Source: an uncultured Methanosarcinales archaeon
GTDB lineage: Archaea > Nanobdellota > Nanobdellia > Woesearchaeales > CAZPJY01
Length of the DNA: 32,000 nt
NCBI GenBank assembly: GCA_964587045.1
Contig: CAZPJY010000014.1
Span: 1 to 32,000, forward strand
Direction of reading: 5' to 3'
Every line of letters starts with the position of its first letter. Positions within the stretch are counted from its first letter, which is position 1. The translations under genes were made by a program, and so were the position numbers. Below the pieces are notes generated by a model, which was not told the DNA's origin, searched no databases, and was given only the letters and a program-made list of their open reading frames with translations. Shown piece by piece: positions 1,314 through 27,732 of this stretch.

Positions 1314-2267
1314 GTGGAAAAGACAACCATCATCTACAACTCATCCATCAGGCTCCCCAAACGCAAGGAGATGAGCCTGTTCGCATTCGCCAAACGGTAC
1401 GGCGCGGAGGTCATACCGACCGAAAGGCAGGGCCATGGCCAGGAGCTTGCTAGAAGGGCGGTGGATGCTGGCGCCAGGATAGTGGGAGCGCTCGGAGGCG
1501 ACGGCACGGTAAGCGAGGTGGTGAACGGCTCCCTGGGTAAGGAGGTCGTGAACTTCGTGCTCCCAGGGGGCACAGGAAACGATTTTGCCAAATACAGCCT
1601 TGGGGTGAGGGACTTTTCGGCCGGTCTGGAAAAACTGGTCAGATACCTGGAGACTGGCGCCAGCAAGAAGAGGATAGACGTGCTGTCCTTTGCTTCAGAG
1701 ACGTTGAACAGGCATTTCGTCAGCACTGGCGACCTGCACTTCGCAGCAGAGGCGACAGTGGAGGCCAAGAAATTCAAGGAGAAGTTCCCGAGGCTGGCTT
1801 ACCCCCTCGGGGCGATATCGGCCTACGGCCGCGTGGAGCAGAAATACCTGCGGCAGGTCAGGATCAACGACGAGCTTGAGATGGAGATTGTCCCTGCGTG
1901 GATGGTGAACGTCAGCAACTCGCCGAGGATCGGCGGAGGGCTCAGGATTGCGCCATATGCGAAGCCCGACGACGGCTACATGGATGTGGTGTTCGTCAAA
2001 AAGCCGAGGTTCGGCCAGCTCCTGCGTCTGCTCCTTAGCGTCCAGCTGGGGTGCTCCTATCACGTGAAGTCAGACATCGCAGAATACTTCTCAGGCCAGC
2101 GCTTCCATGAGAAGTTCAACTCCTTGAAATCGGACATAAAGCCGACTTCGCTTGAGGTGGAGGTTTACCAGGCCATGAGGGTCGAGCTCGACGGCGAGGT
2201 ATTCGAGCCAAAGGACTTCAGGTACGAATTCTCAGTTAGCCCTCACAAGGCTCAGTTCATTAATTAA
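1314..2267 (+). CDS. Lipid kinase of the diacylglycerol kinase catalytic-domain family (YegS/BmrU/LCB5-like), paralog 1
   Basis: 317 aa with a GTG start 20 nt after TTTTATAAAC (1285-1294). Motifs: GALGGDGTVSEVVNG (the GGDGT nucleotide-binding signature) and LPGGTGNDFA. Confidence 0.8.
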   Translation: MEKTTIIYNSSIRLPKRKEMSLFAFAKRYGAEVIPTERQGHGQELARRAVDAGARIVGALGGDGTVSEVVNGSLGKEVVNFVLPGGTGNDFAKYSLGVRDFSAGLEKLVRYLETGASKKRIDVLSFASETLNRHFVSTGDLHFAAEATVEAKKFKEKFPRLAYPLGAISAYGRVEQKYLRQVRINDELEMEIVPAWMVNVSNSPRIGGGLRIAPYAKPDDGYMDVVFVKKPRFGQLLRLLLSVQLGCSYHVKSDIAEYFSGQRFHEKFNSLKSDIKPTSLEVEVYQAMRVELDGEVFEPKDFRYEFSVSPHKAQFIN

Positions 2268-2935: not shown

Positions 2936-2947
2936 TTCCCAATAAGG

Positions 2948-2959
2948 CTTATAAATACC
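2948..2959 (+). promoter_or_regulatory. TATA box (CTTATAAATACC) for the beta-barrel-like gene
   Basis: It matches the window-wide motif and ends 20 nt before ATG 2978, which predicts a leaderless transcript. Confidence 0.45.
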
Positions 2960-2977
2960 AGTTTTGTACGTGGGTAG

Positions 2978-3673
2978 ATGCTCAAGAGAGCCGTTACGCT
3001 CATGCTCGCTGCATCACTTTCATTCCTTCCATTTAGCAAGGCGTTTCCGCAGGACAAGAAGGTCGAGGTCTCGGTCGACTCAGAACCTTTCAGGTTCGAA
3101 GACAAGCTATACGTGATGTTGCGCGTGCCTGAGAGGTACAGGACTGTCAATGGCCATTTGATCGAACGCGAAACCATGATGATCGACGACAAGACAGTCA
3201 AGGCTTCGTTAAAATTGGGCATCGCAGCGCCGCTCATATGGGAGCTTTACGTAAGAGGTCACGCAGGCGTTGCCTTCGACCTAAACCAATCGACAAAAGA
3301 GAGGCGGAACTTTTCAGACCGCGCAGAAGAAGGCAACGATTACTACTTCATCAGCTCATCAAACCGGCTACACCCCCTCTTCGGACTGGAGCTTGAGTTC
3401 AGACCGACTGAGAGGAGGAACGAGAGGCTTAGGATCGCGTACGGGCTAGAAGCAGTTCTCGATGAGGGCTTTGCGGCTTACACACCCAAAGGGTCAAGGG
3501 ACATCGGCGGGTTGAGCACCCTGAGCCAGTACCTGCGCGCAAGGGTGATGCTCTCAGAGCATTTCTATGTCGGGTTCAGGTTCGGAACGGTCGAAATCCT
3601 CACGACGAAGCTTCCCTTCTACCAGGCTGATAGGAACTACACCGCTGGCTTCACGACTGGATTCGAGTTTTGA
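2978..3673 (+). CDS. Secreted protein resembling a small bacterial outer-membrane beta-barrel (OmpA/OmpW-like OMP_b-brl type)
   Basis: 231 aa. The N-terminal signal peptide is MLKRAVTLMLAASLSFLPFSKA. There are repeated amphipathic alternating segments (LFGLELEFR, LRIAYGLEAVL, YLRARVMLS, FYVGFRFGTVEIL). The C terminus YTAGFTTGFEF ends in Phe, like the OMP beta-signal. Confidence 0.5.
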   Translation: MLKRAVTLMLAASLSFLPFSKAFPQDKKVEVSVDSEPFRFEDKLYVMLRVPERYRTVNGHLIERETMMIDDKTVKASLKLGIAAPLIWELYVRGHAGVAFDLNQSTKERRNFSDRAEEGNDYYFISSSNRLHPLFGLELEFRPTERRNERLRIAYGLEAVLDEGFAAYTPKGSRDIGGLSTLSQYLRARVMLSEHFYVGFRFGTVEILTTKLPFYQADRNYTAGFTTGFEF

Positions 3674-4559
3674 AGTCCCTCAGCAGCTTACGGTCCAGAT
3701 TTGAGAAATCTATGAGAGCGTTGTAGAGCTCGAGCACAGAATAAGGTCCTGAATTGTTCTCATAATCTGCCTCTGCACGGTATTCCAAGGTCTTCCTGAC
3801 CAGCCAATTCTTCGAGTGGGCCTTCTCATATTTTTTGTTCCTCTCAAGCTGTGCCATGAGCTTGGCAGTATGCGGGAGGCTGCTTATGGTCTCTGGCAAC
3901 TCGCGGAGCGGGATCCTGAATTCCTTGAGGTGCTCAACAGTCTTTTTGGTGACCTCGACCACGTCATCAAGTTCGCCTTCATTTTCTGACGCTTTGATGT
4001 AGGCTGAGGCGATGTCCCCTACCTTGAATAGGAAGTTCCCATCTTGATATGATAACAGGTGTACGTCGCAAGCCGCGCCTGCGACAGATTCGATATCGAA
4101 AACCTTGGAGTCCTTGAACATAGATTTTATCGTTATTGAAAGGTAATCCATGTTGAGGTTGGTGTTGAGCTTTTCGAGTGTGGTCTCGAGAGCCTTGGTC
4201 ATGCCGACCAGGGTGTGGGGCGCTGCGCTGTGGGTATGGTACAGCTCGAGCGTCGGAATAAGGTCGCCGAAGACGTCATGCGCGTCGTTGGGCCCCTTGC
4301 CGCTTGGAACGTTTTTATCGAACGCATCGAGTATGTGAGTCATGGATAAGTAGTATTCTTGTGCTGAGGATGCCATGTCATCTTTCTCTATCAACGATTT
4401 CAGGAGCAGTGTAATGCCCCAATCGTCTGCCCTCTTATCGTCAGCCCTGCTGAGTATGTCTTTGGCTATGTCATCTAGATTCCTGAAGCTTTCGTCATAG
4501 CTTGAGCCCTGGCCCAGCATCACGATCATCCGCTGATAGCAGCTTTGTGTGTATCCCAT
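3651..4559 (-). CDS. Hypothetical cytoplasmic protein (302 aa), no recognisable domain
   Basis: This is the long ORF directly downstream of the TolC-like gene. It has no signal peptide or TM segment. Its 3' end overlaps the convergent beta-barrel-like gene by 23 nt. Confidence 0.55.
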   Translation of the reverse strand: MGYTQSCYQRMIVMLGQGSSYDESFRNLDDIAKDILSRADDKRADDWGITLLLKSLIEKDDMASSAQEYYLSMTHILDAFDKNVPSGKGPNDAHDVFGDLIPTLELYHTHSAAPHTLVGMTKALETTLEKLNTNLNMDYLSITIKSMFKDSKVFDIESVAGAACDVHLLSYQDGNFLFKVGDIASAYIKASENEGELDDVVEVTKKTVEHLKEFRIPLRELPETISSLPHTAKLMAQLERNKKYEKAHSKNWLVRKTLEYRAEADYENNSGPYSVLELYNALIDFSNLDRKLLRDFKTRIQS

Positions 4560-4581
4560 CGTGAAATCGAGGAGAAACAGT

Positions 4582-4594
4582 CTATTTATAAAGC
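4582..4594 (-). promoter_or_regulatory. TATA box (GCTTTATAAATAG) for the 302-aa gene, abutting the TolC-like stop codon
   Basis: The motif ends 23 nt upstream of ATG 4559. The TolC-like TAA is at 4595-4597. Confidence 0.45.
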
Positions 4595-5875
4595 TTATTG
4601 AGCTTTTCCCCTCGCGACCAGCTCGTCGAGAGGTGTTTCGAAATCCTGGAGGTAGTACCTCAGCGACAGCTCAGCCATCCTGTAAGCTGTAAGGTTCTCG
4701 TAAAGAGCGTACCTTGCGTCGTAATACGCGTCCATCGCATCTTCGACCTCTTTTGCCGTGACCTTCTCCTTGCCTATCTTGCCGGTCGCGAGGTCGTACG
4801 GCACCATGAACAGCTTGACCCCTTCAGGGTCTATTACTTCATATTTCTCCATCATGGTCTTGTAGGAGCCACGAATCCAGCTGTCTATGTCAATCAGCTT
4901 CTGCCTCTTGGCATTCTCCATCTGCTCCAGGCTTATAAGCGCGTTCTCCTTGGTGAGGCTGCTCTCCCCCCAGTCGTAGATTCGCCAGTTTAGGGTGACC
5001 TGCGCGCTGTAGCCGTCGTAACCGGCCTCGATGTTCGAGATCTTATTTGCGCCAAGCGAAACCTGCGGCCATTTGATGGCCTCTGCCAGCTTGATGTTGA
5101 GCCTGCTCTGCTGCTGGTTGAGGTTCTCGTACTGGGTGTGGATAGGAATCGCCAACTGCTTTAGGACGGTGATGGTCTCTTCGTCCTTGAATTCAGGCTT
5201 CTTAGGGAAGATGTAATTTCCGTCGACATTGAAGTCGGATTCGTTGGTCCTGCTCATCCAGCTCTTTATCTTGTCAATCTGGTTTGAGTATGCCACCTGC
5301 ATCTGCATCAGCTTGTTCTTTTGTTCCCGCCTCCTGGCTATGAATGTGGCCTCGAAATCTTGAATGGTCGACTCGTCTTTGGTTTCCCTCGCGATCTGGA
5401 CCACGCGGTCGATGTCGAGGATCTGGTCTGTAAGCAGATCCTTGGCGGTTCTGGTGAGCCTCGCGCTGTAGTAGCTTTGGCTTGTGTTTAGGATTATCCT
5501 TGAGGTGTTGAACTCGACGTCGACCTCTTGCTCTTTGACATTGTTCTTGCGCTTTTCTATGGTAGGGCTCCTTGCGCGGTCGAACAGGGGGACCCCTGTG
5601 TATACGTTGATGGGCGTGCTGTAGTCGCTCTCTCTGTTGGTCCAGTTCTGCGACCCTTGTATCGTCGTCCTCAGGGTTGGGAAATACTGCTGCTTTTTGA
5701 CTATCGACACCATGTTCTCAGCTTTCTTCACCTCAAGGCGGGTGTTCTTCAGCGAGAGGTTGTTCCTTACCGCCTCTTCTACCACCTGGTCAAGAGAGAG
5801 GGTCTCCTGCGCACGCGCGAGAGTGGGAAACAGCAGGCCGGCTGAAAGCAGGGCAACTTTGAGCAGCTTTTTCAT
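4595..5875 (-). CDS. TolC/OprM-like outer membrane factor (outer membrane efflux protein family)
   Basis: 426 aa. Signal peptide MKKLLKVALLSAGLLFPTLARA/QE. The N-terminal signature is LSLDQVVEEAVRNNLSLKNTRLEVKKAENMV...YFPTLRTT. The second half-repeat is LKQLAIPIHTQYENLNQQQSRLNIKLAEAIKWPQVSLGAN. Length and two-repeat layout are typical of OMF proteins. Confidence 0.75.
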   Translation of the reverse strand: MKKLLKVALLSAGLLFPTLARAQETLSLDQVVEEAVRNNLSLKNTRLEVKKAENMVSIVKKQQYFPTLRTTIQGSQNWTNRESDYSTPINVYTGVPLFDRARSPTIEKRKNNVKEQEVDVEFNTSRIILNTSQSYYSARLTRTAKDLLTDQILDIDRVVQIARETKDESTIQDFEATFIARRREQKNKLMQMQVAYSNQIDKIKSWMSRTNESDFNVDGNYIFPKKPEFKDEETITVLKQLAIPIHTQYENLNQQQSRLNIKLAEAIKWPQVSLGANKISNIEAGYDGYSAQVTLNWRIYDWGESSLTKENALISLEQMENAKRQKLIDIDSWIRGSYKTMMEKYEVIDPEGVKLFMVPYDLATGKIGKEKVTAKEVEDAMDAYYDARYALYENLTAYRMAELSLRYYLQDFETPLDELVARGKAQ

Positions 5876-5896
5876 AGAAGTCTGGAAATCTAATGA

Positions 5897-5909
5897 TTAT
5901 TTATATAAC
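5897..5909 (-). promoter_or_regulatory. TATA box (GTTATATAAATAA) for the TolC-like gene
   Basis: The proximal end is about 25 nt upstream of ATG 5875, the same motif and spacing as at housekeeping genes such as lonB. Confidence 0.45.
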
Positions 5910-5916
5910 TTGTGGG

Positions 5917-6885
5917 TTATTTTGAGAGGGCTTTGATGATGTCCTCAGCCCTGTAGATGGTCATTCCAAAGGTGTCCCTTTTCACCTGGTTTTTATACAC
6001 GCAGTAGCCTGCCCAGATTGCCTTTCTCGCCCCTGCTAGGTCCCTAAGCCTGAAAGGCACCCTAATCTTTTCGAAGAGGTATAGCATCTCCTCCCCGGGG
6101 TACGCCTGGTATGACACAAATCCTGAGACGTGGGTTCGGGTGGGGTCGATGGTGAATGGTATGCTCTTAGACAGCCTGATTTTGTTCACATACTCCCCCA
6201 ACAAGCCCATGTTCAAGAGGGTGGGGATATCTGATTTGGAGACGTTGGGTTTTTCGAACCTGCAAAAAGAGAGGTAATGGCTCCAAGGCGTTTCCGTTGA
6301 TTTGAACTCTATCCTGCTACCAGTCTCCTTGACTGTCTTGGTAAAATCCCTGTCCGATCCCCTGACCAGCCTGATTGAGTGCACCTCTTCCGGAAGCAGC
6401 ACGATATCCCAATTTGGATTGGTGTCGCTTCCCGACAGGTCTATGGTAAGGTAGGGATCGGTGTGGTTGAGGACTACGTTCCTGTGGTCCCTTTCCCTGA
6501 TCCTTTTCCGTTCCCTTGAGCCTGTCTTGGTGGTGTAGGGCAGAAGCATTGTGAATGTGTGTGTGACTTTCCTTTCTGAGATGTCAGTACCGTAGGCAGC
6601 CTCGAGATATCTCTTGAGCCGCTCCCTTCCGAGGTTGAGCATGGGCTTGTCCAGTAGCTTGGTGTCGAGGTCGATGTACGTGTTGACCTCGACTGCTGAT
6701 GCTTGGGTCGGGAAGAGGTTTATTGCTTCTGTGAGTATCTCGTTGATGTCGAGCGCAATGAGCTCAAGCTTCTCTTCATCAGCCTCGAGTTTGAAACGTT
6801 TGAGGCGTCCGTCCAGGAACTCGTTCGCGGTCTCTATAGTGAGCGTGTCCAAATACACTTTCTCTGTCAGACTCTGGGTGTTCAT
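5917..6885 (-). CDS. Hypothetical cytoplasmic protein (322 aa), no recognisable domain
   Basis: The long ORF opens at ATG 6903, but the TATA motif at 6905-6916 sits immediately next to that codon. The second in-frame ATG at 6885 (MNTQSLTEK...) has the canonical 20-nt spacing and is preferred. Confidence 0.55.
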   Translation of the reverse strand: MNTQSLTEKVYLDTLTIETANEFLDGRLKRFKLEADEEKLELIALDINEILTEAINLFPTQASAVEVNTYIDLDTKLLDKPMLNLGRERLKRYLEAAYGTDISERKVTHTFTMLLPYTTKTGSRERKRIRERDHRNVVLNHTDPYLTIDLSGSDTNPNWDIVLLPEEVHSIRLVRGSDRDFTKTVKETGSRIEFKSTETPWSHYLSFCRFEKPNVSKSDIPTLLNMGLLGEYVNKIRLSKSIPFTIDPTRTHVSGFVSYQAYPGEEMLYLFEKIRVPFRLRDLAGARKAIWAGYCVYKNQVKRDTFGMTIYRAEDIIKALSK

Positions 6886-6904
6886 GGTGAGCAGGAGAAA
6901 CATA

Positions 6905-6916
6905 CTATTTATAAGC
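6905..6916 (-). promoter_or_regulatory. TATA box (GCTTATAAATAG) for the 322-aa gene
   Basis: Consensus motif 20 nt upstream of ATG 6885. Confidence 0.45.
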
Positions 6917-6956
6917 TTTATGTCATTTACTACTTATTGGTGGTTAATAATCGAAA

Positions 6957-6970
6957 CATTTATATAAATT
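6957..6970 (+). promoter_or_regulatory. TATA box (CATTTATATAAATT) for the divergent membrane-protein gene
   Basis: It ends about 19-20 nt before the in-frame ATG at 6989. Confidence 0.4.
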
Positions 6971-6988
6971 TGGGGGTTGCATGAGAGC

Positions 6989-7492
6989 ATGGACCAGGAT
7001 AGAAGCCTTGAGCAGGCGATCAACGATACAGGCATGGGCGTGGCCCTAGCAGCCGTTGTCTATGGCACCAGGTACAAGTTTGCGCCATACATCGCTAAAC
7101 TGATCGGTAACGTTGACCTGAAGGTAAGCATCGACCATTTTTGGGGCATGGCATCAGTACCAATTATAGCTAAGGGAGTAGGAGGCCTGGTCGAGCACGC
7201 CTTCCGGAATGATTCTGACCATAGAATTGGGAAGTTCGCAAATACCCTGATCCAGACTGCGTTTATTGGTTCAGCATTCCTGCTGCAGACTGTCGGCTGG
7301 GAGATGCTGACCCAGCCGGGTCGTAGGGGATACACCCAGTGGGAGCAGGTCGCCGCAGACTGCCTCGGGCTCGCCGCAGGGATTGGGATAGCGCATTACG
7401 ATTCAGCCAAGAAGCATCTCGGAAGTTACGCCTCGAGGTTGGGCGGACAGCTCCGCAAGGTCAAGGACTCCCTCCATCCCGCTGATTTCTGA
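6989..7492 (+). CDS. Hypothetical integral membrane protein (167 aa, about 4 hydrophobic segments)
   Basis: Hydrophobic stretches: GMGVALAAVVYG, MASVPIIAKGVGGLV, LIQTAFIGSAFLLQTVGW and CLGLAAGIGIA. ATG 6989 is preferred over TTG 6977 because of the TATA spacing. Confidence 0.5.
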   Translation: MDQDRSLEQAINDTGMGVALAAVVYGTRYKFAPYIAKLIGNVDLKVSIDHFWGMASVPIIAKGVGGLVEHAFRNDSDHRIGKFANTLIQTAFIGSAFLLQTVGWEMLTQPGRRGYTQWEQVAADCLGLAAGIGIAHYDSAKKHLGSYASRLGGQLRKVKDSLHPADF

Positions 7493-7498
7493 AAAGAC

Positions 7499-9508
7499 TC
7501 ACTCCTGCATGATCTCAAATATGTGGCATTCGCCAGGTTCGAGCACGACAGTCAGGAAAGGAGTGGTGCGTTCGTAGAAGCTGTCCTTGAGCAGGTCCTT
7601 TAGAACATAAGGCTTGGAGAAGTCGTAGCCCTCAAGCTCAGGTAGGTCAATCTTCACGTGATCTGCCCTGGCGTTGACGTCCAGGTTTACCACAACCAGG
7701 CAGGTCTGGCGTCTATCAGAACCGTTGTAGTTCCGCAGGAAAGCGAAGATCTGGGCTTGATGCGTGACGCCCTGCTCTGACATGACAAAATGGTAAGAGC
7801 CCTTTTGGAAGGCTACATTATCATTCCTGATGCTGTTGATACTGCCCAGGAATTCAGAAATGTTGTTTGGCGAATCCCAGTTGATCGGGGTGTAGGATAG
7901 GACGCTTACGTTCTTGTGTTCGACGACCTCGTATCCGTTGTGCAGCATAGGTATGCCCGGAAGCAGGGCTGTCAGCACCCACCTGCTCTTGTTGAGCCTG
8001 ACGTCAGACTTGTCCGAGTGAAGCAGGTCCTTGAATTTCTCAGGCAGCCTCATGTGATCATGGCATTCAGGGAACTGCATCCACCACGAGCCCCTGGGGA
8101 AGAACTCGCCTGAGATGTTGTAGGCGTAGTCCAGGTACCCCTTGAGCGACTCGACATTGTGTATCTTCCAGGCAAAGTCCCCGTTGAGGCAGTCGATCCC
8201 GCACTCCTGCAGCTCGAAAACGTCATTTACATAAGTCTCGCCAATGAACAGGATGTCTGCAGATAATGGGGCCACGTCCTGGTCGGCCGGATTCCTCTTG
8301 TTGTTGGAGCAGACCTTCTCCGCATACCTCCTTGTCTCCTCTATGGCCTCGTGCCAGAAGTTCGGCGGCACGGCGTATGCGACGTCGAGGCGGAAACCGT
8401 CCACTCCGTAGTTCTTGATCCAGTACTTCAGGACGTTTTTAAAGTACTCTCTCATCTCCCTGATGCGCGGGTTCCTGGGAGGCTCGTTTTCAGCCGGCGC
8501 GTAGCGGAAGTTCCAGTTGATCTGGGCACAGTCCTTCCAGAATATGTCGTGGTCGAAAGGCGAGAAGGCGTGTTCTGGCTTGCCCCAGTACAGGTCGGAG
8601 TTCGGACCGTCAGGGTAGAGGTAAGGCCCCTCCAAAGAGTGTGGGAACCTCTTGTAGAGGAACCATTCAGGATGTATCCTCTGGATGAACGAGTCCTTAG
8701 CGGTGTGGTCAAATACCATGTCGAGGATGACCCTGATTCCCCTCATGTGACAAGTTTTCACGAACCTCTTAAACTCGTGGTACTGGTCGGTGTCAGGCAT
8801 CTCCTCATTGAGCCCGAGCTCTGGATCTATCGACTTGTACTCCTTGAGGGAATACACCGAGCCCGGAAGAAGGTAGGACGGCAGGCTGTTGGTCTCATCT
8901 TGGTAATGGTACAAGTCTCCGACCTTCTGTATGGGGTTGAGATAAATCGCGCCGATCCCGAGGTTGGCTAGCCTGGGCATGGCCTTAATCAGGTCGTTGA
9001 AGGTACCTCCCTCCCCAGGCCGTATGATTCCGTCCTTGTTGTCGTCCCTAGCGCCGAACTGCCTGACGAAAGCGTTGTAGATGATGGTATCGGAAAGCCA
9101 GGAAGGCTCGACGTAAATAGGATTCACCTTCCTTTTGGCAAAGCTCCTGTTCTCGCCGCCCCACCAGTTCCACACTGCCTCGCTCTTCAATCTGTAACGG
9201 ATTGAGAACTCGTAGAAGCCCGCCCTCGAAGGCGTGATGGTCCTCTTGAAGAAAAGGAAGTCGCCTTCCCTCTTGTAAAACCTCAGGACAGCGGCGTACT
9301 CAGGCCTGGTGCCCGGCTCTTTTGGGCTGATCCTCTCAAACTCCTTGCAGGGGATGTTGGTCCAGATCTCGGGCCTGAATCTCGATATGAAATCCTCGGG
9401 CGACTCTTCAAGCCCGCTCACCTCAATCGTCATGAAGAAGGTAAGCGGCTCTAATGATAGCACCTTGGTCAGAACGTCAGGATAGACCTGCACCACGTCG
9501 ATATGCAA
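7499..9508 (-). CDS. GH13 (alpha-amylase superfamily) alpha-glucan-active enzyme with GlgE-like sequence signatures
   Basis: 669 aa. GH13 regions: DMVFDHTAKD (I), GFRLDVAYAVPPNFW (II), LFIGETY (III), FPECHDH (IV). HPEWF and the R-L-D-x5-P-x2-FW spacing resemble maltosyltransferase GlgE more than classic amylases. The TTG start at 9508 follows the SD GAGGTGGTG (9511-9519). Confidence 0.8.
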   Translation of the reverse strand: MHIDVVQVYPDVLTKVLSLEPLTFFMTIEVSGLEESPEDFISRFRPEIWTNIPCKEFERISPKEPGTRPEYAAVLRFYKREGDFLFFKRTITPSRAGFYEFSIRYRLKSEAVWNWWGGENRSFAKRKVNPIYVEPSWLSDTIIYNAFVRQFGARDDNKDGIIRPGEGGTFNDLIKAMPRLANLGIGAIYLNPIQKVGDLYHYQDETNSLPSYLLPGSVYSLKEYKSIDPELGLNEEMPDTDQYHEFKRFVKTCHMRGIRVILDMVFDHTAKDSFIQRIHPEWFLYKRFPHSLEGPYLYPDGPNSDLYWGKPEHAFSPFDHDIFWKDCAQINWNFRYAPAENEPPRNPRIREMREYFKNVLKYWIKNYGVDGFRLDVAYAVPPNFWHEAIEETRRYAEKVCSNNKRNPADQDVAPLSADILFIGETYVNDVFELQECGIDCLNGDFAWKIHNVESLKGYLDYAYNISGEFFPRGSWWMQFPECHDHMRLPEKFKDLLHSDKSDVRLNKSRWVLTALLPGIPMLHNGYEVVEHKNVSVLSYTPINWDSPNNISEFLGSINSIRNDNVAFQKGSYHFVMSEQGVTHQAQIFAFLRNYNGSDRRQTCLVVVNLDVNARADHVKIDLPELEGYDFSKPYVLKDLLKDSFYERTTPFLTVVLEPGECHIFEIMQE

Positions 9509-10556: not shown

Positions 10557-10647
10557 TCCGGCCGGTGAGCATTTAGGCTTTATTTAAATGTTATCTAGAA
10601 AGTTTTTTATAATTCAGCACAAGGATATGCGGGGTGGGGGTGTTATA

Positions 10648-11700
10648 ATGAAAAAGTCATTGGTATTAGTAATTCTGGTATTGCTGCTCGCAGCATCGGC
10701 CTTGGCTGTGACAGGACCAAAAACCTTCAACGGCAAGAGCTACTACGTCGTGACCTCGACGGACCAGACTGAGGATTCAGGTAACGAGGTCTGCACCAAG
10801 ATGGGGATGAAGTGCGTGGGCTACACCGAGCCTACCACTGCGGTGTGCAAGCTGTTCCACCCTGGAGCCGCGGACACATCAAGCATGTCAGGAGACCTTT
10901 CTGGGGTGTACTGCAACGGAGCGCCGCAGAGCGGCGTCTGCGCTGCTGAGACTGACACCTGTCACGCATGTCCCGCGTGCACTAACACCGTGAGCTGCTC
11001 GACCGCGATAGGAGGGCTCTACATGGAGATGTACGTCGAGTGCGCTTCGGGATCCTGCAAGATCAATATAGTATCTCAGAACACGCAGGACTTCTTCAAG
11101 GAGATACCCAGCCTGAACGCCCAGCTCCAGGGCTGCCCTGTCGCTCTTCCAAAAGGCACAGGTTTGGTGCTGGCAAACGGCATAACCCAGGTGAATGTCG
11201 CCATGAATACAGGAGCGATCCAGGGGTTCTACCTAACGGTCTCGAATGGCCTGATAACTGGCATTGCGGCAGGCACCTCGTCGTGCAAGCAGCGGCTCGC
11301 GATGATGGAGTCGGACCTTGACACCATCCTTTTAAGCAGCAACCAGCTGGGCACGGTGTCGTCGATGATCGCAAGCAAGAAGATTGGAATAAGCGGCTGC
11401 AAGCTGCTCACCAAGATAAAGCTCGCCATCATCAAGCCTGTAATCAACTATATTGCCAAGAAGCAGGCTCCTCCGACCCCGCCGCCACCAAAGCCCCCAC
11501 CCAACTGCGGCCAAATCGGCGAGCAGTGCAACAACAGGGCGTGCTGGTCTGGCATGTGCGGAGCTCCCAAGGAGTTCGTCAACGGGCAGTGGAGGTATGT
11601 CAACTACCGCTGCATAACCCAGGCGGAATACACTGCCAACTGCATCGGACAAGGCAATACTCCTCCGGCTTGGAGCTGTCTGGTTGGTCCATGCCAGTAA
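10648..11700 (+). CDS. Secreted cysteine-rich protein with a proline-rich linker and a C-terminal disulfide-knot-like module
   Basis: ATG 10648 follows the SD GGGGTGGGGGTG. Signal peptide MKKSLVLVILVLLLAASALA. I count 22 Cys. The linker is QAPPTPPPPKPPPN. The final approx. 65 aa carry 8 Cys (NCGQIGEQCNNRACWSGMCG...). There is no C-terminal membrane anchor. Confidence 0.65.
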   Translation: MKKSLVLVILVLLLAASALAVTGPKTFNGKSYYVVTSTDQTEDSGNEVCTKMGMKCVGYTEPTTAVCKLFHPGAADTSSMSGDLSGVYCNGAPQSGVCAAETDTCHACPACTNTVSCSTAIGGLYMEMYVECASGSCKINIVSQNTQDFFKEIPSLNAQLQGCPVALPKGTGLVLANGITQVNVAMNTGAIQGFYLTVSNGLITGIAAGTSSCKQRLAMMESDLDTILLSSNQLGTVSSMIASKKIGISGCKLLTKIKLAIIKPVINYIAKKQAPPTPPPPKPPPNCGQIGEQCNNRACWSGMCGAPKEFVNGQWRYVNYRCITQAEYTANCIGQGNTPPAWSCLVGPCQ

Positions 11701-14788: not shown

Positions 14789-15787
14789 TTACTTGGCCTC
14801 GGCATCGCGAGGGTCGTAGATCTCCCCGACGATCTCTTCCATCATGTCTTCCATCGTGATTATGCCCATTGATGTGCGTTTGGCTTTCACCACGGCCATG
14901 GAATCGCCCTGGCTCTGGAGCTCCTGGATCAGCGCGCCGATGCTCTTGCCCTCGCTCACAGTCACTAGCGGGCGTATGAGGTTCCTCCAGTCAGACTCAT
15001 CCTTGGAGTAAAGCATGTCGAAGATGTTGAGGAAGCCGATTATGTTCCTAGGGTTCCTGTTCCAGACCGGGTACCTGGTGAATCCGGATTTCGCAGCCAT
15101 CTTGAGCACATCCTGCCTTTTGGCCTTCATGCTGACGGACTTGACCTTCGAGATGGGAATCATGACTTTCCTCACCTTGGTCTCAGAGAACTGGAAGATG
15201 GAATGTATCATATCCTTTTCGTGGGCCTCAAGCACGCCTTCCTTTTCACCCTCAACCACCAGTAGCCTAAGCTCCTCCTTGGTCAGGAAGACGCTCTTTC
15301 CCGTCCTCTTGACCCCCAGCATCCAGGTGATGGCTTTCGATATGCTGCTCGTAACTATTATCACGGGCCAGAACAGGTAGATGAAGAGTCGCAACACCCG
15401 GGAAAGAGAGCGCACCATCAGAGAAGCCCGCATCCTGAACAGGGTCTTGGGCAGGATCTCGCCGAACACCAGGATTATGATGGTTACGACTACAGTCGCA
15501 ACGCTTGCGCCGTAGCTGCCCAGAAGCGAGACGAACATGAGCGTGGCAAAGGATGTGGCAGCAACATTTGAGAGGTTGGTTCCGACCAGCATGGCTGAGA
15601 GCACCCTGTCAGGGTTGTCCAGCATCCTGATCACCCTCCTTGCGTTGGGGTTGCCTTCCTCTGCCAGATGCCTCAGGCGTATCCTGTTGACCGCGGTGAG
15701 GCCTGTTTCGCTTCCTGAGAAGAATGCGCTTAAGAACAGAGCGAGGACGAAGCCGGACACGGTCCAGATGCTGAACGGCTCGATCAT
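14789..15787 (-). CDS. CNNM/CorC-type transporter-like protein: DUF21 membrane domain plus CBS pair, with no CorC_HlyC tail
   Basis: 332 aa. The N-terminal FFSGSETGLTAVNRIRLRHLAEEGN is the DUF21 signature, followed by a CBS pair. The protein ends right after ...MEDMMEEIVGEIYD. Confidence 0.8.
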   Translation of the reverse strand: MIEPFSIWTVSGFVLALFLSAFFSGSETGLTAVNRIRLRHLAEEGNPNARRVIRMLDNPDRVLSAMLVGTNLSNVAATSFATLMFVSLLGSYGASVATVVVTIIILVFGEILPKTLFRMRASLMVRSLSRVLRLFIYLFWPVIIVTSSISKAITWMLGVKRTGKSVFLTKEELRLLVVEGEKEGVLEAHEKDMIHSIFQFSETKVRKVMIPISKVKSVSMKAKRQDVLKMAAKSGFTRYPVWNRNPRNIIGFLNIFDMLYSKDESDWRNLIRPLVTVSEGKSIGALIQELQSQGDSMAVVKAKRTSMGIITMEDMMEEIVGEIYDPRDAEAK

Positions 15788-17061
15788 ATTTTACCTCCCG
15801 AGGTCTTCCTGACCTTGCGTCTGGGTTGGGGCATCAAGTTCTTCCAGGGCCGTGTCTTGTCATTCAAGAGGACTGATACTATGCGTTTCTTCCTCACCAG
15901 CTCCACCCTGAGCTTCCTCGCCTTGAATTTCACGGTGTCGCCTTTTGTCGGCAGGCGGCCCAGCTTGTGCATGATGAAGCCTGCCACGGTGTCGTAGTCG
16001 CCTTCAGGGATTTCAGCACCGAGCTCGTCATTGGCCTCATCGATGAGCAGCGCGCCTGACATCCTGACCGTAGACGGGTTGATTACCTTGAAAGCCTCCT
16101 CAGGCTTTTCGTACTCGTCGCGGATCTCGCCGAAAATCTCTTCCAGCACGTCTTCCAGGGTGACCAGGCCGGCGGTCCCGCCGAACTCGTCCACTACGAC
16201 TGCCATCTTCCTTCGTTCCTTCTGGAAGGTTCTGAGCATGCGGGAGATGCCGATGACCTCAGGCACCAGAAGGGGTTTTTTCACGTACTCAGAAGCAGGC
16301 AGCCCCAGGAGCAGCGGCTTGGTGTGGACTACACCCTCCACCCTGTCTATGTCCTCCCCTATGAGGGGCATCTTCGAGTGCTTGGCCTGAATGGCGGTGA
16401 CTGTCATCTCAGTCGAGCTCATAGACGTGTTGAGGCTTTTCATGTCTACCCTGGGAGTCATGATGTCCTTGACTACTGTATCCGAGAACTCGAGGACGTT
16501 GGTTATCATCTCCTTCTCTTCCTCGTCGAGGACGCCGTCGTGCTGACCTATCTTGATAAGGGTTCTCAGCTCGTCCTCAGTCACTATCTTTTCCTTCTTG
16601 GGCTTGAAATTCTTCAGCATCTTCTCAGTCAGGTTCTCGAGGACGATGATGAATGGGTAGGCGATTATTGCAAAGTAGTGCAGTGGGTAGATCTCGATAA
16701 TAGCGAAGCGTTCAGCGTTCTCGATGGCTATGACCTTTGGTGTGATCTCGCCCAGGATGAGCAGCAGGAGAGTTATCACGCCGATTGCGATGCCGAGTCC
16801 TGCGTCACCGAAAACCCTGATCGCGATGCTGGTCGCAAGAGCTGATGTTGCGACGTTGATTAGCGTGTTGCCGAGGAGTATCGTGACGAGGGTCCGGGTC
16901 GGCTTTTCCATCATGTCAGAGATCATCTTGCCGGCGATTGGATGTTTCTTCCTGAGCCTGATGATTCTGATCTTCGATAGTGAGAACAGCGCAGTCTCTG
17001 TTGATGAGAAGAATGCAGACAGGAAAAAAAGTATGATGAATGCGACGACCTGTCCGATCAC
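15784..17061 (-). CDS. CNNM/CorC-type transporter-like protein: DUF21 + CBS pair + CorC_HlyC transporter-associated domain
   Basis: 425 aa with a GTG start. FFSSTETALFSLSKIRIIRLRKK is the DUF21 signature, followed by a CBS pair. LEDVLEEIFGEIRDEYE is followed by a C-terminal domain ...DYDTVAGFIMHKLGRLPTKGDTV. The stop overlaps the start of the downstream paralog (15784-15787). Confidence 0.85.
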   Translation of the reverse strand: MIGQVVAFIILFFLSAFFSSTETALFSLSKIRIIRLRKKHPIAGKMISDMMEKPTRTLVTILLGNTLINVATSALATSIAIRVFGDAGLGIAIGVITLLLLILGEITPKVIAIENAERFAIIEIYPLHYFAIIAYPFIIVLENLTEKMLKNFKPKKEKIVTEDELRTLIKIGQHDGVLDEEEKEMITNVLEFSDTVVKDIMTPRVDMKSLNTSMSSTEMTVTAIQAKHSKMPLIGEDIDRVEGVVHTKPLLLGLPASEYVKKPLLVPEVIGISRMLRTFQKERRKMAVVVDEFGGTAGLVTLEDVLEEIFGEIRDEYEKPEEAFKVINPSTVRMSGALLIDEANDELGAEIPEGDYDTVAGFIMHKLGRLPTKGDTVKFKARKLRVELVRKKRIVSVLLNDKTRPWKNLMPQPRRKVRKTSGGKI

Positions 17062-18845: not shown

Positions 18846-18934
18846 TCCTTTTATATAACTATTGCCGGCAACGACCGCAATATTTAATCACAAATGCGAA
18901 ATATTTATATATTAATATACTTATTTGTATATTG

Positions 18935-19042
18935 ATGAGACTAGAGCAGCTATATACCATCAAGAAAGCGAAGAGGCAGCGAGTAAAAGCCTTCATGCGC
19001 GAGCTTGAGGACAGGCATTACAGCAACATGGGTGGGCGCTGA
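18935..19042 (+). CDS. Possible 35-aa basic mini-protein
   Basis: ATG 18935 lies 23 nt after TTTATATA (18904-18911). Translation: MRLEQLYTIKKAKRQRVKAFMRELEDRHYSNMGGR. The stop overlaps the next ATG (TGATG). There is no homology evidence. Confidence 0.25.
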   Translation: MRLEQLYTIKKAKRQRVKAFMRELEDRHYSNMGGR

Positions 19043-19155
19043 TGCAGACAGAGCTCTCGAACTGGATCAACACTCACCAGATAGTTCTAAATCCTGAGAC
19101 CATCCGGAAAGTAAAGGAGCTCCGGATGAGAGGGATAAGGCGAAGAACCAGATAG
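19042..19155 (+). CDS. Possible 37-aa basic mini-protein
   Basis: Translation: MQTELSNWINTHQIVLNPETIRKVKELRMRGIRRRTR. It appears translationally coupled to the preceding mini-ORF. It falls below the ORF-track size cutoff. Confidence 0.2.
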   Translation: MQTELSNWINTHQIVLNPETIRKVKELRMRGIRRRTR

Positions 19156-19186
19156 GAATACCTATGAGAGAATCAGCTTACCTGAC

Positions 19187-19381
19187 CTAAGAGGAATCTT
19201 TTGACTCATCAGTGGATGACTCTTCGTCTTCCTTCTCCTCGTCGGCGGCTTGGTCATAGCCGATGAGGAAAGCCTCCTCCTCCGGCTCTATCATATCGTT
19301 GTCAAGCCATTCCTCGGTCGTGTCGGCATCGACCTCAGCGTGGGCGTCGTCGTATGCCTCCTCGTCGTACTCTTCATCCAT
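19187..19381 (-). CDS. Extremely acidic 64-aa protein
   Basis: MDEEYDEEAYDDAHAEVDADTTEEWLDNDMIEPEEEAFLIGYDQAADEEKEDEESSTDESKDSS is about half Asp/Glu. The gene starts 5 nt after the stop of the upstream coiled-coil gene. Confidence 0.5.
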   Translation of the reverse strand: MDEEYDEEAYDDAHAEVDADTTEEWLDNDMIEPEEEAFLIGYDQAADEEKEDEESSTDESKDSS

Positions 19382-19386
19382 AGGGC

Positions 19387-19596
19387 CTACTTTTCGCTTT
19401 TTTCTTTAAATACTTTTTCTTTTTTCAAGCCAGCGACGACAGACTCCCATTTCAGGCTCTCATCCCTCTGCTTTATGGCCGTCCTCATCAGCAGCTCGTT
19501 TTCGGCGCGGAGCTTGTCTATCATCTCATCCTTCCTTTTCAGCTCATCATGGAGGACCGAGACTTCACGCTTGTAATCCGCGAGCTTTTTTGCCAT
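19387..19596 (-). CDS. Small coiled-coil protein (69 aa)
   Basis: MAKKLADYKREVSVLHDELKRKDEMIDKLRAENELLMRTAIKQRDESLKWESVVAGLKKEK has heptad-like charge and hydrophobic periodicity. ATG 19596 is preceded by GGTGGGTG; GTG 19599 is an alternative. Confidence 0.5.
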   Translation of the reverse strand: MAKKLADYKREVSVLHDELKRKDEMIDKLRAENELLMRTAIKQRDESLKWESVVAGLKKEKVFKEKSEK

Positions 19597-19778
19597 CACC
19601 CACCTTTTTCAGCGCTCACGTATTTAATTCTTTCCTACAGTAATAAATTACTCACATTTTTCGTATATCAGTCTAATATTTTGTGACCTGCTCTGGTCGG
19701 TATAATAGAAAATTATTTATATGCCACTCGCACAAATAGACACAATCAAGTTTGCATTGGAAAAGGAGGTTGATATGA

Positions 19779-20024
19779 GTGGCTGATGAAAAAAGTTTTT
19801 ATCCGGGCGCTTCGGTTGTCGCGTCTCTTCTTGGGCTCATCCTTGTGTTCTATACAGGACCGATAGGTGCAATCCTGGCGATAGTAGGCATCTACTTCGG
19901 CGGGGTGCAGCTGAACAAATTCGCGAAGGGACATGCTGAAGCAGGGATTGGTGGATCTCTAGGCGGTGTCATCATTGGAATAATAGCGCTGCTAATATTC
20001 GTATTCCTCGCCTACGGCATCTAA
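19779..20024 (+). CDS. Small two-TM membrane protein (81 aa, Gly-rich; DUF4190-like)
   Basis: The GTG start lies 9 nt after the SD GGAGGT (19765-19770). The two hydrophobic Gly-rich segments are ASVVASLLGLILVFYTGPIGAILAIVGIYFGG and GGSLGGVIIGIIALLIFVFLAYGI. Confidence 0.55.
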   Translation: MADEKSFYPGASVVASLLGLILVFYTGPIGAILAIVGIYFGGVQLNKFAKGHAEAGIGGSLGGVIIGIIALLIFVFLAYGI

Positions 20025-20050
20025 TTTATTTCCTCTTTCTTTCTTGCAAA

Positions 20051-20061
20051 ACTTTATATAC
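20051..20061 (+). promoter_or_regulatory. TATA box (ACTTTATATAC) for the 20085-22708 operon
   Basis: It has the same 11-mer as the lonB promoter (29091-29101). It ends 23 nt before ATG 20085. Confidence 0.45.
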
Positions 20062-20084
20062 TTCAACTACCCAGATGAGGCTTA

Positions 20085-24835: not shown

Positions 24836-25551
24836 TTTGCCTGCACCTCAAACTTCTTCTTCACAGCATCGCGCTGGACATCGGCAATCTGCTTGATGGC
24901 CACCTTGGCCTTTTTTAGGATCTCCTTTAGTTCCTCCCTTGTCAGGAACCCGTCCATCTGCAGTAGGCTCACCTCACCGGTCGAAGGAATCATCGCCACC
25001 GGGATATCGGTTGACATCGCGACCCCATCCTCCTTGTAAGCCTCTTCGGTGTAATCCAGATCCACCACGATCTTGTCTCCAATCTTTCCCAAGGCGATCG
25101 CGCCGACGAGGTCCTTCATGTTGATACCTGCGTCCGCGAGTGCCATTGAGGCCGCACAGATGCCTGCGCACCTGCTGCCGGCGTCTGTCTGAGGCAGTTC
25201 GATGAAGACGTCCACGACAGCGTTTGGGTACTCGGAGAGATCGATTACGGGCTGGAGGGCTTTTTCAGTCACGAGCGATATCTCTTTCGACCTCCTGTTT
25301 GCCCCTGGCCTCACGCGGTCCTCCTTGGCGGAGAAAGGCATCATGTTGTAGTTGACGCGAAGTATCCCCGTCGCGGGGTTCTGCATGAATTTGGGGTAGA
25401 GATCCCTCGGACCGTACACAGCTGCGTAGGCATGGGTATTGCCGATCTTGAAATAGGCAGACCCTTCGGCGTTCTTGATCACACCGACTTTCGCTTCAAT
25501 CGGGCGCAGCTGTTCAAAACTCCGTCCGTCTTCTCGCTTATTGTATGTCAT
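24832..25551 (-). CDS. rrp41: Exosome complex exonuclease Rrp41 (RNase PH-like, catalytic subunit)
   Basis: 239 aa. REDGRSFEQLRPIEAKVGVIKNAEGSAYFKIGNTHAYAAVYGPRD and GANRRSKEISL (phosphate-binding region). Confidence 0.9.
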   Translation of the reverse strand: MTYNKREDGRSFEQLRPIEAKVGVIKNAEGSAYFKIGNTHAYAAVYGPRDLYPKFMQNPATGILRVNYNMMPFSAKEDRVRPGANRRSKEISLVTEKALQPVIDLSEYPNAVVDVFIELPQTDAGSRCAGICAASMALADAGINMKDLVGAIALGKIGDKIVVDLDYTEEAYKEDGVAMSTDIPVAMIPSTGEVSLLQMDGFLTREELKEILKKAKVAIKQIADVQRDAVKKKFEVQAK

Positions 25552-25553
25552 TG

Positions 25554-27731: not shown

Positions 27732-27732
27732 C

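What the first reader, a model, noticed from the sequence alone, without database searches (positions are those of the whole stretch)
2948..5909. Bacterial-type outer-membrane proteins (TolC-like channel plus a small beta-barrel with a terminal-Phe beta-signal) in an archaeal chromosome, under native archaeal promoters
ORF 4595-5875 (-) has a Sec signal peptide ending ARA/QE. It then shows LSLDQVVEEAVRNNLSLKN...YFPTLRTT and a second half-repeat ending ...IKWPQVSLGAN. At 426 aa, this is the architecture of TolC/OprM outer membrane factors.

ORF 2978-3673 (+) has a signal peptide and alternating amphipathic strands. It ends in YTAGFTTGFEF, the C-terminal aromatic signature used by Bam-dependent OMPs.

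Outer membrane factors and OMP beta-barrels are hallmarks of diderm bacteria. The rest of the window is unambiguously archaeal (Alba, exosome, PsmA, Pop5, RpoK, LonB).

Both genes carry the same TATA motif at the same 20-25 nt distance from the ATG as lonB and other core genes. They therefore look domesticated rather than contaminating.

Two readings follow. Either bacterial envelope proteins were acquired horizontally by an archaeon and have an unknown insertion target, or the host has an outer-membrane-like layer.
Basis: partly seen in the sequence, partly recalled or inferred. Interest (0 to 1): 0.85.

Follow-up and report, generated by a model that had tools for sequence, protein, structure and literature searches.

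The report
TolC-like channel gene in DPANN archaeon
A small symbiotic-type archaeon (Woesearchaeota) carries a very diverged copy of the bacterial outer-membrane channel protein TolC with host-type expression signals, which is odd because such archaea are not known to have an outer membrane; the neighbouring "small beta-barrel" could not be confirmed.

Summary
The sequence observation is confirmed. ORF 4595-5875(-) is a full-length, very diverged member of the TolC/outer-membrane-factor family. It scores 69 bits on Pfam OEP against a cutoff of 22, with two repeats. A profile built only from bacterial TolCs finds it at E 1.8e-46, and hhalign gives 99.9% probability over 395 columns.

The contig is archaeal on both sides. 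LonB is 72-78% identical to about 80 Woesearchaeota/Nanoarchaeota genomes, and the exosome superoperon, Alba and PsmA are present.

A chimeric join is very unlikely:
- A separate JGI assembly reproduces 5295-8108 at 99.9% identity.
- The gene's GC3 and codon usage match the host.
- All five island genes carry the host TATA motif 20-23 nt before the start codon.

The nearest relatives are only about 26% identical and form a tiny subfamily. The one member with long enough context sits in a plainly bacterial (Bacteroidota) contig, so the likely origin is an old bacterium-to-archaeon transfer. No pump or adaptor genes lie in the window.

ORF231 has a signal peptide, amphipathic beta-type segments and a C-terminal F-x-F. 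It is an orphan with no profile hit and no usable model, so its barrel status is unproven.

Whether the host has an outer lipid layer cannot be tested here.

The parts
4595..5875 (-). TolC-family (OEP) outer-membrane-factor homologue, 426 aa, full length
   Evidence: Pfam OEP gives 69.1 bits in 2 stretches. TIGR01844 gives only 33.7 bits against a cutoff of 225. hhalign against bacterial TolCs gives 99.9% probability with residues 5-410 aligned. An HMM of bacterial TolCs alone gives E 1.8e-46. The family profile matches solved TolC, OprM, CusC and CmeC at full length.
5810..5875 (-). Sec-type signal peptide, residues 1-22, predicted cleavage ARA|QE
   Evidence: By sequence inspection: KK n-region, a 14-residue hydrophobic core, and an A-x-A motif. 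The mature part has no hydrophobic segment of transmembrane-helix length.
5579..5686 (-). First beta-hairpin region (about residues 64-99, YFPTLRTTIQGSQNW...PINVYTGVPLFD), with short external loop
   Evidence: It aligns to the strand columns of classical TolCs, including the conserved Pro and the FD motif, and is much shorter than in them. The alternating hydrophobic face was read directly from the sequence.
4967..5074 (-). Second beta-hairpin region (about residues 268-303, WPQVSLGANKISN...SAQVTLNWRIYDWG)
   Evidence: It aligns to the TolC strand columns. The nearly invariant P270 and the DWG motif are retained.
4598..4648 (-). C-terminal tail QDFETPLDELVARGKAQ, shared only with the small subfamility of nearest relatives (DFxTPxxxLGxRN)
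   Evidence: Alignments A3 and A4. The tail is absent from classical TolCs.
5899..5908 (-). TATA box of the TolC-like gene (TTATATAAAT), 22 nt before the ATG
   Evidence: Motif and spacing match those of host genes lonB, orf279, orf288, orf97 and dagk.
2978..3673 (+). ORF231: orphan secreted protein, candidate beta-rich or OMP-like, unproven
   Evidence: Signal peptide MLKRAVTLMLAASLSFLPFSKA|F and C-terminal ...GFTTGFEF. It has 6 dyad-amphipathic segments against 1.8 in shuffles. No family or PDB hits and no homologues. AlphaFold pLDDT is 31.
2940..2957 (+). Promoter of ORF231 (CAATAAGGCTTATAAATA), 20 nt before the ATG
   Evidence: (inverted repeats I11 and I15 with the orf302 and orf328 promoters).
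3651..4559 (-). ORF302: orphan protein directly downstream of the TolC-like gene, no signal peptide, function unknown
   Evidence: No hits in Pfam, NCBIfam, PHROG, PADLOC or PDB. It has its own TATA box at 4583-4600, overlapping the TolC stop codon.
5917..6903 (-). ORF328: orphan protein directly upstream of the TolC-like gene; true start probably M7 (ATG at 6885)
   Evidence: No family hits. A 99.7% identical copy lies on JGI contig L001. Promoter at 6906-6921.
6977..7492 (+). ORF171: orphan, Gly/Ala-rich, moderately hydrophobic protein; true start probably M5 (ATG at 6989)
   Evidence: No family hits. It is 100% identical on L001. The TATA box lies at about 6958-6968.

Best explanation
ORF 4595-5875(-) is a genuine, highly diverged member of the TolC/outer-membrane-factor (OEP) family, resident in the chromosome of a Woesearchaeota-type DPANN archaeon.

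Shown:
- It has the full TolC architecture at sequence level: a signal peptide and two OEP repeats. Each repeat has a short amphipathic beta-hairpin followed by long helices.
- It lies between archaeal genes.
- Its codon usage is the host's.
- It has a host-type TATA box at leaderless spacing.

Inferred:
- It was acquired long ago from a bacterium. Its nearest relatives form a small stand-alone TolC subfamily, one member of which is in a Bacteroidota MAG. It was then ameliorated and kept.
- It is exported by Sec and its signal peptide is cleaved.
- It assembles as a trimer, with a 12-stranded lipid-embedded barrel and a helical tunnel about 10 nm long.
- It serves as a gated duct in the archaeon's envelope, or at the contact zone with its host cell.
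- It works without a genetically linked pump or adaptor.

The membrane it inserts into is unknown. The adjacent ORF231 is an orphan secreted protein rich in amphipathic beta-type segments. It may be a membrane barrel, but this is not established.
For: Family membership:
- Pfam OEP gives 69 bits in 2 repeats.
- All 6 subfamily members hit OEP.
- hhalign gives 99.9% probability over 395 columns.
- An HMM built only from bacterial TolCs gives E 1.8e-46.
- The family profile matches solved TolC, OprM and CusC at full length.
- Family-wide hallmark residues are kept: NN in helix 1, YY135-136, P270 and DWG301-303.

Native to an archaeon:
- LonB is 72-78% identical to 80 Woesearchaeota/Nanoarchaeota genomes.
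- The left-flank GTPase and ArgRS also hit those genomes, and archaeal core genes are present.
- A separate JGI assembly matches 5295-8108 at 99.9% identity, across the junction into the amylase gene.
- GC3 is 0.742 and the codon-usage distance is 0.755, inside the host range, while the relatives' contigs are 30-41% GC.
- The host promoter motif sits at fixed spacing.

Bacterial origin:
- The nearest relatives P0128 and P0129 lie in bacterial context.

Export without a helix anchor:
- A signal peptide is present and no transmembrane helix.
Against: - No 3D support. The AlphaFold model has pLDDT 46.8, shows only long helices and does not model the beta regions. Foldseek on that model gives only generic coiled coils.
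- The protein fails the NCBIfam TolC subfamily cutoff (33.7 against 225 bits).
- No adaptor, pump or Omp85 gene is in the window.
- The host lineage is not known to have a second membrane. No insertion machinery or target membrane is known for an archaeon.
- No close homologue exists, so purifying selection could not be measured.
- The rest of the genome could not be retrieved.
Confidence: 0.6

Rival explanations
1. The host archaeon really has an outer lipid layer, as reported for Ignicoccus, ARMAN and Altiarchaeum. The TolC-like protein and ORF231 are its resident outer-membrane proteins.
For: - Both proteins have cleavable signal peptides and no helix anchor.
- The TolC-like hairpins keep a hydrophobic face (sequence inspection).
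- ORF231 shows excess dyad amphipathicity and a C-terminal F-x-F.
- Double membranes are reported in a few archaea, including DPANN-affiliated ones (PMC8871954).
Against: - The gene is extremely rare. There are no relatives in GTDB genomes and none in 1.1 Mb of 80 Woesearchaeal genomes. Only 27 weak hits occur in 1.84 billion representatives.
- No Omp85, Lpt, Lol or adaptor gene is in the window.
- ORF231 is not verified as a barrel.
Confidence: 0.12
2. The protein is a host-directed device. It is secreted by the episymbiont and its barrel inserts into the membrane of the partner cell (a diderm bacterium or archaeon). The helical tunnel then spans the intercellular gap as a conduit.
For: - DPANN archaea are mostly contact-dependent ectosymbionts (PMC6349945).
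- The protein is secreted, stand-alone and fast-evolving, as surface and interaction proteins often are.
- It sits among orphan genes with their own promoters.
Against: This is pure inference. TolC barrels normally need BAM and insert from the periplasmic side. No partner that would connect the tunnel to the symbiont's own membrane is seen, and the host organism is unknown.
Confidence: 0.12
3. It is a domesticated but repurposed or decaying transfer. The protein is a soluble or S-layer-associated helical scaffold, or has no function, and no longer forms a membrane barrel.
For: - It is extremely diverged, at most 26% identity to anything.
- The hairpin loops are shortened.
- AlphaFold models only the helices.
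- No partners are present.
Against: - The 426-codon ORF is intact, has host codon usage and has a consensus promoter.
- Strand-region hallmark residues and dyad hydrophobicity are retained.
Confidence: 0.12
4. Assembly or binning artefact: a bacterial fragment was joined to an archaeal contig.
For: The closest relatives are bacterial. The left junction (2903-2977) has no second assembly covering it.
Against: - A second assembly spans the TolC-like gene, orf328, orf171 and the amylase gene at 99.9% identity.
- Archaeal genes lie on both sides.
- Codon usage is the same as the host's.
- The same promoter motif and spacing occur in island and core genes, including the shared divergent sdpI/orf231 intergenic region.
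Confidence: 0.03

Closest known systems
TolC / outer membrane factor family (Pfam OEP PF02321; E. coli TolC 1EK9, OprM 1WP1, CusC, CmeC, MtrE)
   Same: - Sec signal peptide.
- Two tandem OEP repeats.
- Full-length colinear alignment.
- Conserved Pro before strand 1 of each repeat, the DWG motif after the last strand, and long helical hairpins.
- Non-lipoprotein, TolC-type N-terminus with no lipobox Cys.
   Different: - About 20-26% identity only, and below the NCBIfam TolC and NodT cutoffs.
- Much shorter external loops and an extra C-terminal DFxTP tail.
- Encoded in an archaeon, from an archaeal leaderless promoter.
- No adaptor or pump nearby.
Small stand-alone TolC subfamily (P0126, P0127, P0130; Bacteroidota MAG GCA_030706235.1 proteins MDP4267526.1 and MDP4266800.1)
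   Same: - Short hairpins and the same C-terminal tail.
- Similar length, 415-452 aa.
- Not next to efflux genes. Neighbours are NAD kinase, a TPR protein, a TrpB-like protein and an SMC_N protein.
   Different: - Only 20-27% identical.
- Low-GC contigs (30-41%) against 53% here.
- The one informative context is bacterial.
- No neighbour genes are shared with the window.
Small 8-10-stranded OMP barrels (OmpA-TM, OmpX, OmpW, Pfam OMP_b-brl) - for ORF231
   Same: Signal peptide, a mature size of about 208 aa, several dyad-amphipathic segments, and a last strand ending F-x-F.
   Different: No profile or structure-database similarity at all, and no homologues. It has a high Arg/Glu content, and the fold is not predicted.
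Archaeal outer-membrane proteins of known diderm archaea (e.g. Ignicoccus Ihomp1/Imp1227; from my own knowledge)
   Same: It would likewise be a pore-forming protein of an archaeal outer envelope, if the novel reading were true.
   Different: Those proteins are archaeal inventions, small and alpha-helical, and are unrelated to TolC.

Membership tests
TolC / OMF (Pfam OEP PF02321) | Significant match to the OEP profile in two tandem repeats covering the whole protein | tested here: met
   69.1 bits against a cutoff of 22, in 2 stretches. hhalign aligns residues 5-410 at 99.9% probability. An HMM built only from bacterial TolCs gives E 1.8e-46.
TolC / OMF (Pfam OEP PF02321) | N-terminal Sec signal peptide (with or without a lipobox) | tested here: met
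   MKKLLKVALLSAGLLFPTLARA|QE by inspection, with no Cys and therefore TolC-type. No dedicated predictor was available.
TolC / OMF (Pfam OEP PF02321) | Two amphipathic beta-hairpins per protomer (12-stranded barrel in the trimer) plus long helical hairpins | tested here: inconclusive
   Sequence-level alignment to the strand columns and the dyad hydrophobic pattern are present. Long helices are predicted at 111-165, 168-209, 305-344 and 374-410. The model has pLDDT 46.8, the strands are not modelled, and Foldseek is uninformative.
TolC / OMF (Pfam OEP PF02321) | Homotrimer embedded in the outer membrane of a diderm cell, inserted by BAM | not testable with these tools
   There is no multimer prediction, no full genome and no imaging. 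The host lineage is Woesearchaeota, which is not known to be diderm.
TolC / OMF (Pfam OEP PF02321) | Works with a periplasmic adaptor (HlyD/MFP) and an inner-membrane RND, ABC or MFS transporter | tested here: not met
   No such domains occur in any ORF of the 32-kb window. The rest of the genome was not retrievable. Many bacterial tolC genes are also unlinked, so this does not exclude partners elsewhere.
NCBIfam TIGR01844 (type I secretion TolC) / TIGR01845 (NodT lipoprotein) subfamilies | Score above the curated subfamily cutoff | tested here: not met
   33.7 bits against 225.15, and 13.5 against 210.05. It is not a member of either curated subfamily.
Bam-dependent small OMP beta-barrels (OmpA/OmpW/OmpX, OMP_b-brl) - ORF231 | Profile or structural similarity to a barrel family | tested here: not met
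   No Pfam or NCBIfam hit at E<=1. No PDB hit. No homologues from which to build a profile.
Bam-dependent small OMP beta-barrels (OmpA/OmpW/OmpX, OMP_b-brl) - ORF231 | Signal peptide and C-terminal beta-signal ending in an aromatic residue | tested here: met
   SKA|F cleavage motif. In the last strand NYTAGFTTGFEF, alternating positions are Y, A, F, T, F, F and the terminal residue is Phe. This is a loose, post-hoc pattern match.
Bam-dependent small OMP beta-barrels (OmpA/OmpW/OmpX, OMP_b-brl) - ORF231 | An even number (8 or more) of transmembrane amphipathic strands forming a closed barrel | tested here: inconclusive
   6 strong dyad-amphipathic 10-mers against 1.8+-1.2 in shuffles (p about 0.004) on the Kyte-Doolittle scale, not significant on the Wimley-White scale. 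AlphaFold pLDDT is 31.

The most novel reading that the evidence does not exclude
A Woesearchaeal DPANN archaeon uses a domesticated bacterial TolC-type channel-tunnel in a lipid layer outside its cytoplasmic membrane, possibly together with the orphan beta-rich protein ORF231. That layer would be either an outer membrane of its own or the membrane of its host cell at the contact site. This would be the first bacterial-type outer-membrane channel working in an archaeal envelope or in an interdomain cell-cell conduit.
Probability: 0.15. Interest if true: 0.85.

Novelty: new member of a known kind. Interest (0 to 1): 0.5.

Why it matters
TolC-family proteins are treated as markers of the diderm bacterial envelope. 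This copy is demonstrably native to an archaeon, and its signals look expressible. Two consequences follow:
- The marker can cross domains and persist, which is a caution for envelope inference from MAGs.
- A concrete question arises: into which lipid layer does an archaeal TolC insert, and without BAM?

If the protein proves to be membrane-embedded, it would bear on how DPANN episymbionts build conduits to their hosts. It would also bear on the repeated origin of double membranes in archaea. If not, it is a well-documented example of interdomain transfer and amelioration of an envelope gene.

Tried and rejected
- AlphaFold of ORF231 (single sequence, pLDDT 31) was unusable.
- AlphaFold of the TolC-like protein with a 120-sequence alignment gave pLDDT 46.8. 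That alignment was dominated by one Acidobacteria-type TolC clade. Foldseek on this model returned only coiled coils.
- PDB sequence searches with single proteins found nothing. The subfamily profile alone gave only marginal MtrE and OprM hits.
- Looking for relatives found nothing new: GTDB genomes with the protein, IMG/VR with the TolC-like protein and orf328, and JGI metagenomes with the adjacent amylase. The subfamily alignment was too variable to scan with.
- PHROGs and PADLOC gave no hits, so nothing here points to a virus or a defence system.
- No integrase is present and no flanking direct repeats were found, so there is no support for a mobile island. The only repeats are the promoter motifs.
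- Neighbour genes of the relatives are not shared with the window.
- The internal repeat is not detectable by BLASTP of the two halves; only the profile shows it.
- The source contig could not be extended.
- Literature searches found no description of TolC/OEP proteins in DPANN or other archaea.


Full report
**1. Observation**

Both ORFs are present exactly as described.
- ORF 4595-5875(-) encodes 426 aa. It begins MKKLLKVALLSAGLLFPTLARA|QETLSLDQ, a classical n-h-c signal peptide with an A-x-A cleavage motif.
- ORF 2978-3673(+) encodes 231 aa. It begins MLKRAVTLMLAASLSFLPFSKA|F and ends YTAGFTTGFEF.
- Neither protein has a hydrophobic segment of transmembrane-helix length in its mature part.

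**2. Identity of the 426-aa protein**

Direct family tests:
- Pfam OEP (PF02321) matches with 69.1 bits against a curated cutoff of 22, in two stretches.
- The NCBIfam TolC and NodT subfamily models are far from met: 33.7 against 225 bits, and 13.5 against 210.
- Single-sequence search of the PDB finds nothing.

Database relatives:
- The word-indexed search of 5.8 billion protein clusters finds only the protein itself and one weak TolC hit.
- Exhaustive phmmer over 1.84 billion representatives gives only 27 hits at E<=1e-3. The best are P0126 (26% identity, E 2e-32), P0127 (E 8e-17) and three fragments. Together these form a small subfamily.
- The subfamily has short hairpin loops and a shared C-terminal DFxTPxxxLGxRN tail. 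All six members hit OEP.

Profile-level tests:
- The subfamily profile aligns to a profile of 22 classical bacterial TolCs with 99.9% probability and E 3e-34. The alignment spans 395 columns, covering query residues 5-410.
- An HMM built from those bacterial TolCs alone, without the window sequence, scores the window ORF at 156 bits, E 1.8e-46.
- A combined profile matches solved TolC, OprM, CusC, CmeC, MtrE and VceC structures end to end, with E down to 4.5e-36.
- Family hallmarks are retained: the NN motif of helix 1, YY135-136, the nearly invariant P270 before the second hairpin, and DWG301-303.
- By direct reading, the four predicted strands (about residues 66-77, 88-98, 271-281 and 290-302) keep one predominantly hydrophobic face.

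Three-dimensional confirmation failed:
- AlphaFold with the only alignment allowed reached pLDDT 46.8. That alignment held 120 sequences, almost all from one Acidobacteria-type clade. The model showed only the long helices at 111-165, 168-209, 232-266, 305-344 and 374-410.
- Foldseek on that model was meaningless.

Conclusion: this is a full-length but very diverged TolC-family protein at sequence level. The fold is inferred, not shown.

**3. Host and authenticity**

The window carries the archaeal exosome superoperon (Pop5, PsmA, SBDS, Rrp4, Rrp41, Rrp42), Alba, LonB, ArgRS, TreT and two tRNAs.

Lineage:
- LonB is 72-78% identical to LonB of 80 genomes. Most are labelled Woesearchaeota, Nanoarchaeota or Nanoarchaeia, including the complete genome GW2011_AR15.
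- Many of the 80 are binchicken MAGs labelled 'uncultured Methanosarcinales', which I take to be placeholder names.
- The GTPase on the left flank (257-979) and ArgRS also find their best matches in these genomes.
- The host is therefore a Woesearchaeota-type DPANN archaeon.

Evidence against a chimera:
- (i) JGI contig Ga0315542_1022813 (2,814 bp) matches window 5295-8108 at 99.9% identity. This is a separate assembly, though I cannot tell whether it comes from a separate sample. It spans the TolC N-terminus, orf328, orf171 and the junction into the GH13 amylase gene.
- (ii) GC3 of the TolC-like gene is 0.742 and its codon-usage distance to the other genes is 0.755. Both lie inside the range of core genes (GC3 0.62-0.77; distance 0.55-1.5). 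The contigs of its relatives have 30-41% GC.
- (iii) A motif (A/T)AAGCTT(T)ATAAATA precedes all five island genes, ending 20-23 nt before the start codon. The spacing is 20 nt for orf231, 22 nt for the TolC-like gene and 23 nt for orf302.
- orf328 and orf171 fit the same spacing if their starts are moved to M7 (ATG at 6885) and M5 (ATG at 6989).
- The same motif and spacing precede lonB (21 nt), orf279, orf288, orf97, dagk and ntp335. This is the BRE/TATA arrangement expected for leaderless archaeal mRNAs.

The left border (2903-2977) has no second assembly. It is, however, a shared divergent promoter region between the host sdpI gene and orf231.

**4. Origin**

Only two relatives come with informative context, P0128 and P0129. 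They are probably two halves of one gene split between contigs of the MAG GCA_030706235.1, which NCBI names as a TolC family protein of a Bacteroidota bacterium. Their neighbours are plainly bacterial: GyrA, NlpC/P60, Asd, DUF1573 and NAD kinase.

The other relatives sit on contigs shorter than 4.5 kb, next to TrpB-like, POT/MFS or SMC_N genes. None is adjacent to efflux genes, and none shares neighbours with the window.

The most economical reading is an old bacterium-to-archaeon transfer of a stand-alone TolC-type gene, followed by complete amelioration and strong divergence.

The gene is not a lineage trait:
- No relative was found in GTDB species genomes by the pattern scan.
- No TolC-like ORF occurs in 1.1 Mb from 80 Woesearchaeal genomes.
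- None was found in IMG/VR.

**5. The rest of the island (2948-7492)**

- orf302, orf328 and orf171 have no hit in Pfam, NCBIfam, PHROGs, PADLOC or the PDB.
- No integrase is present and no flanking direct repeats were found, so I found no sign of a mobile element, virus or defence system.
- No HlyD/MFP adaptor, no RND, ABC or MFS efflux transporter and no Omp85 occurs anywhere in the 32 kb.

**6. ORF231**

- It is an orphan: only itself in 5.8 billion clusters, no profile or PDB similarity, and an AlphaFold pLDDT of 31.
- It has six strongly dyad-amphipathic 10-mers against 1.8+-1.2 in shuffles (p about 0.004) on the Kyte-Doolittle scale. On an interfacial scale there is no excess. Control proteins from the window show no excess on either scale.
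- Its last strand, NYTAGFTTGFEF, has the alternating hydrophobic pattern and terminal Phe typical of OMP C-termini. This is a loose, post-hoc criterion.
- The barrel reading is compatible with the data but unproven. A secreted beta-sandwich would look the same.

**7. Mechanism**

Shown:
- A Sec-type signal peptide.
- TolC-family colinearity, including both hairpin regions.
- Host-type promoter elements upstream.
- No alpha-helical anchor.

Inferred from established knowledge of TolC (solved structures matched):
- Trimerisation into a 12-stranded barrel with a helical tunnel that is closed at its distal end until engaged.

Unknown:
- The lipid layer that receives the barrel, and how insertion occurs without BAM.

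Three targets are conceivable: an uncharacterised outer layer of the archaeon, the membrane of a host cell at the contact site, or no membrane at all if the protein has been repurposed as a scaffold. I rank a membrane-embedded envelope duct first, because the strand hallmarks and dyad hydrophobicity are conserved despite roughly 75% sequence divergence. Confidence in this step is modest.

**8. Comparison and novelty**

This is a new, very divergent member of a known family (OEP/TolC) in an unexpected host, without linked partners. I found no paper describing TolC-family proteins in DPANN or other archaea. Double membranes are reported for Ignicoccus, ARMAN and Altiarchaeum (PMC8871954).

The finding is solid as an interdomain transfer. 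It is intriguing but unproven as envelope biology.

**9. Verdict**

- Observation: partly confirmed. The TolC-like gene, the archaeal context and the promoters hold; the ORF231 barrel is unproven.
- Interpretation: partly supported. Horizontal acquisition and domestication hold; the outer-membrane reading is untested and not favoured by the gene's rarity.
- Interest is 0.5.
- The most novel reading still open is a bacterial-type channel working in an archaeal outer layer or an archaeon-host conduit. I put it at about 0.15 probability.

Noticed in passing
window 10588-11700 (+): A 370-aa protein with a signal peptide, very many cysteines and a PPTPPPPKPPP linker, with no Pfam hit. It looks like a secreted or surface protein of the kind common in DPANN genomes.
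   Followed up: no
window 6885-6903 and 6977-6989: Promoter spacing implies mis-set start codons. orf328 most likely starts at M7 (ATG at 6885), because its TATA box lies only 5 nt from the first ATG. orf171 most likely starts at M5 (ATG at 6989) and not at the TTG at 6977.
   Followed up: partly
window 4583-4600: The TATA/BRE motif of orf302 overlaps the stop codon and last codons of the TolC-like gene. The promoter-plus-leader sequences of orf302 and orf328 are 83% identical over 29 nt (repeat D1).
   Followed up: partly
window 14789-17061 (-); 1314-2267 (+) and 28217-29083 (+): Tandem CNNM/CorC-type paralogues (30% identical) and two diacylglycerol-kinase-like genes (26% identical) in one 32-kb stretch of a presumably small genome.
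   Followed up: no
window 24035-31007 versus loci L012-L091: None of 80 related Woesearchaeal genomes has psmA, pop5, SBDS or exosome genes within 10 kb of lonB. Gene order around lonB is therefore not conserved in this lineage. ArgRS is only about 41% identical while LonB is about 76%.
   Followed up: partly
window 18846-20084: A low-GC (about 0.47) stretch of 1.2 kb without long ORFs. It holds only small ORFs: a very acidic 64-aa ORF, a coiled-coil-like 70-aa ORF and an 81-aa ORF with two hydrophobic segments. No Rfam family reaches threshold.
   Followed up: no
loci L092 (308-982) and L093 (10001-10502), Bacteroidota MAG GCA_030706235.1: The two nearest named relatives look like the C- and N-terminal halves of one TolC-family gene split across two contig ends. 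Its flanks are a TPR protein upstream and NAD kinase downstream, not efflux genes. This suggests an uncharacterised stand-alone TolC subfamily in bacteria.
   Followed up: partly
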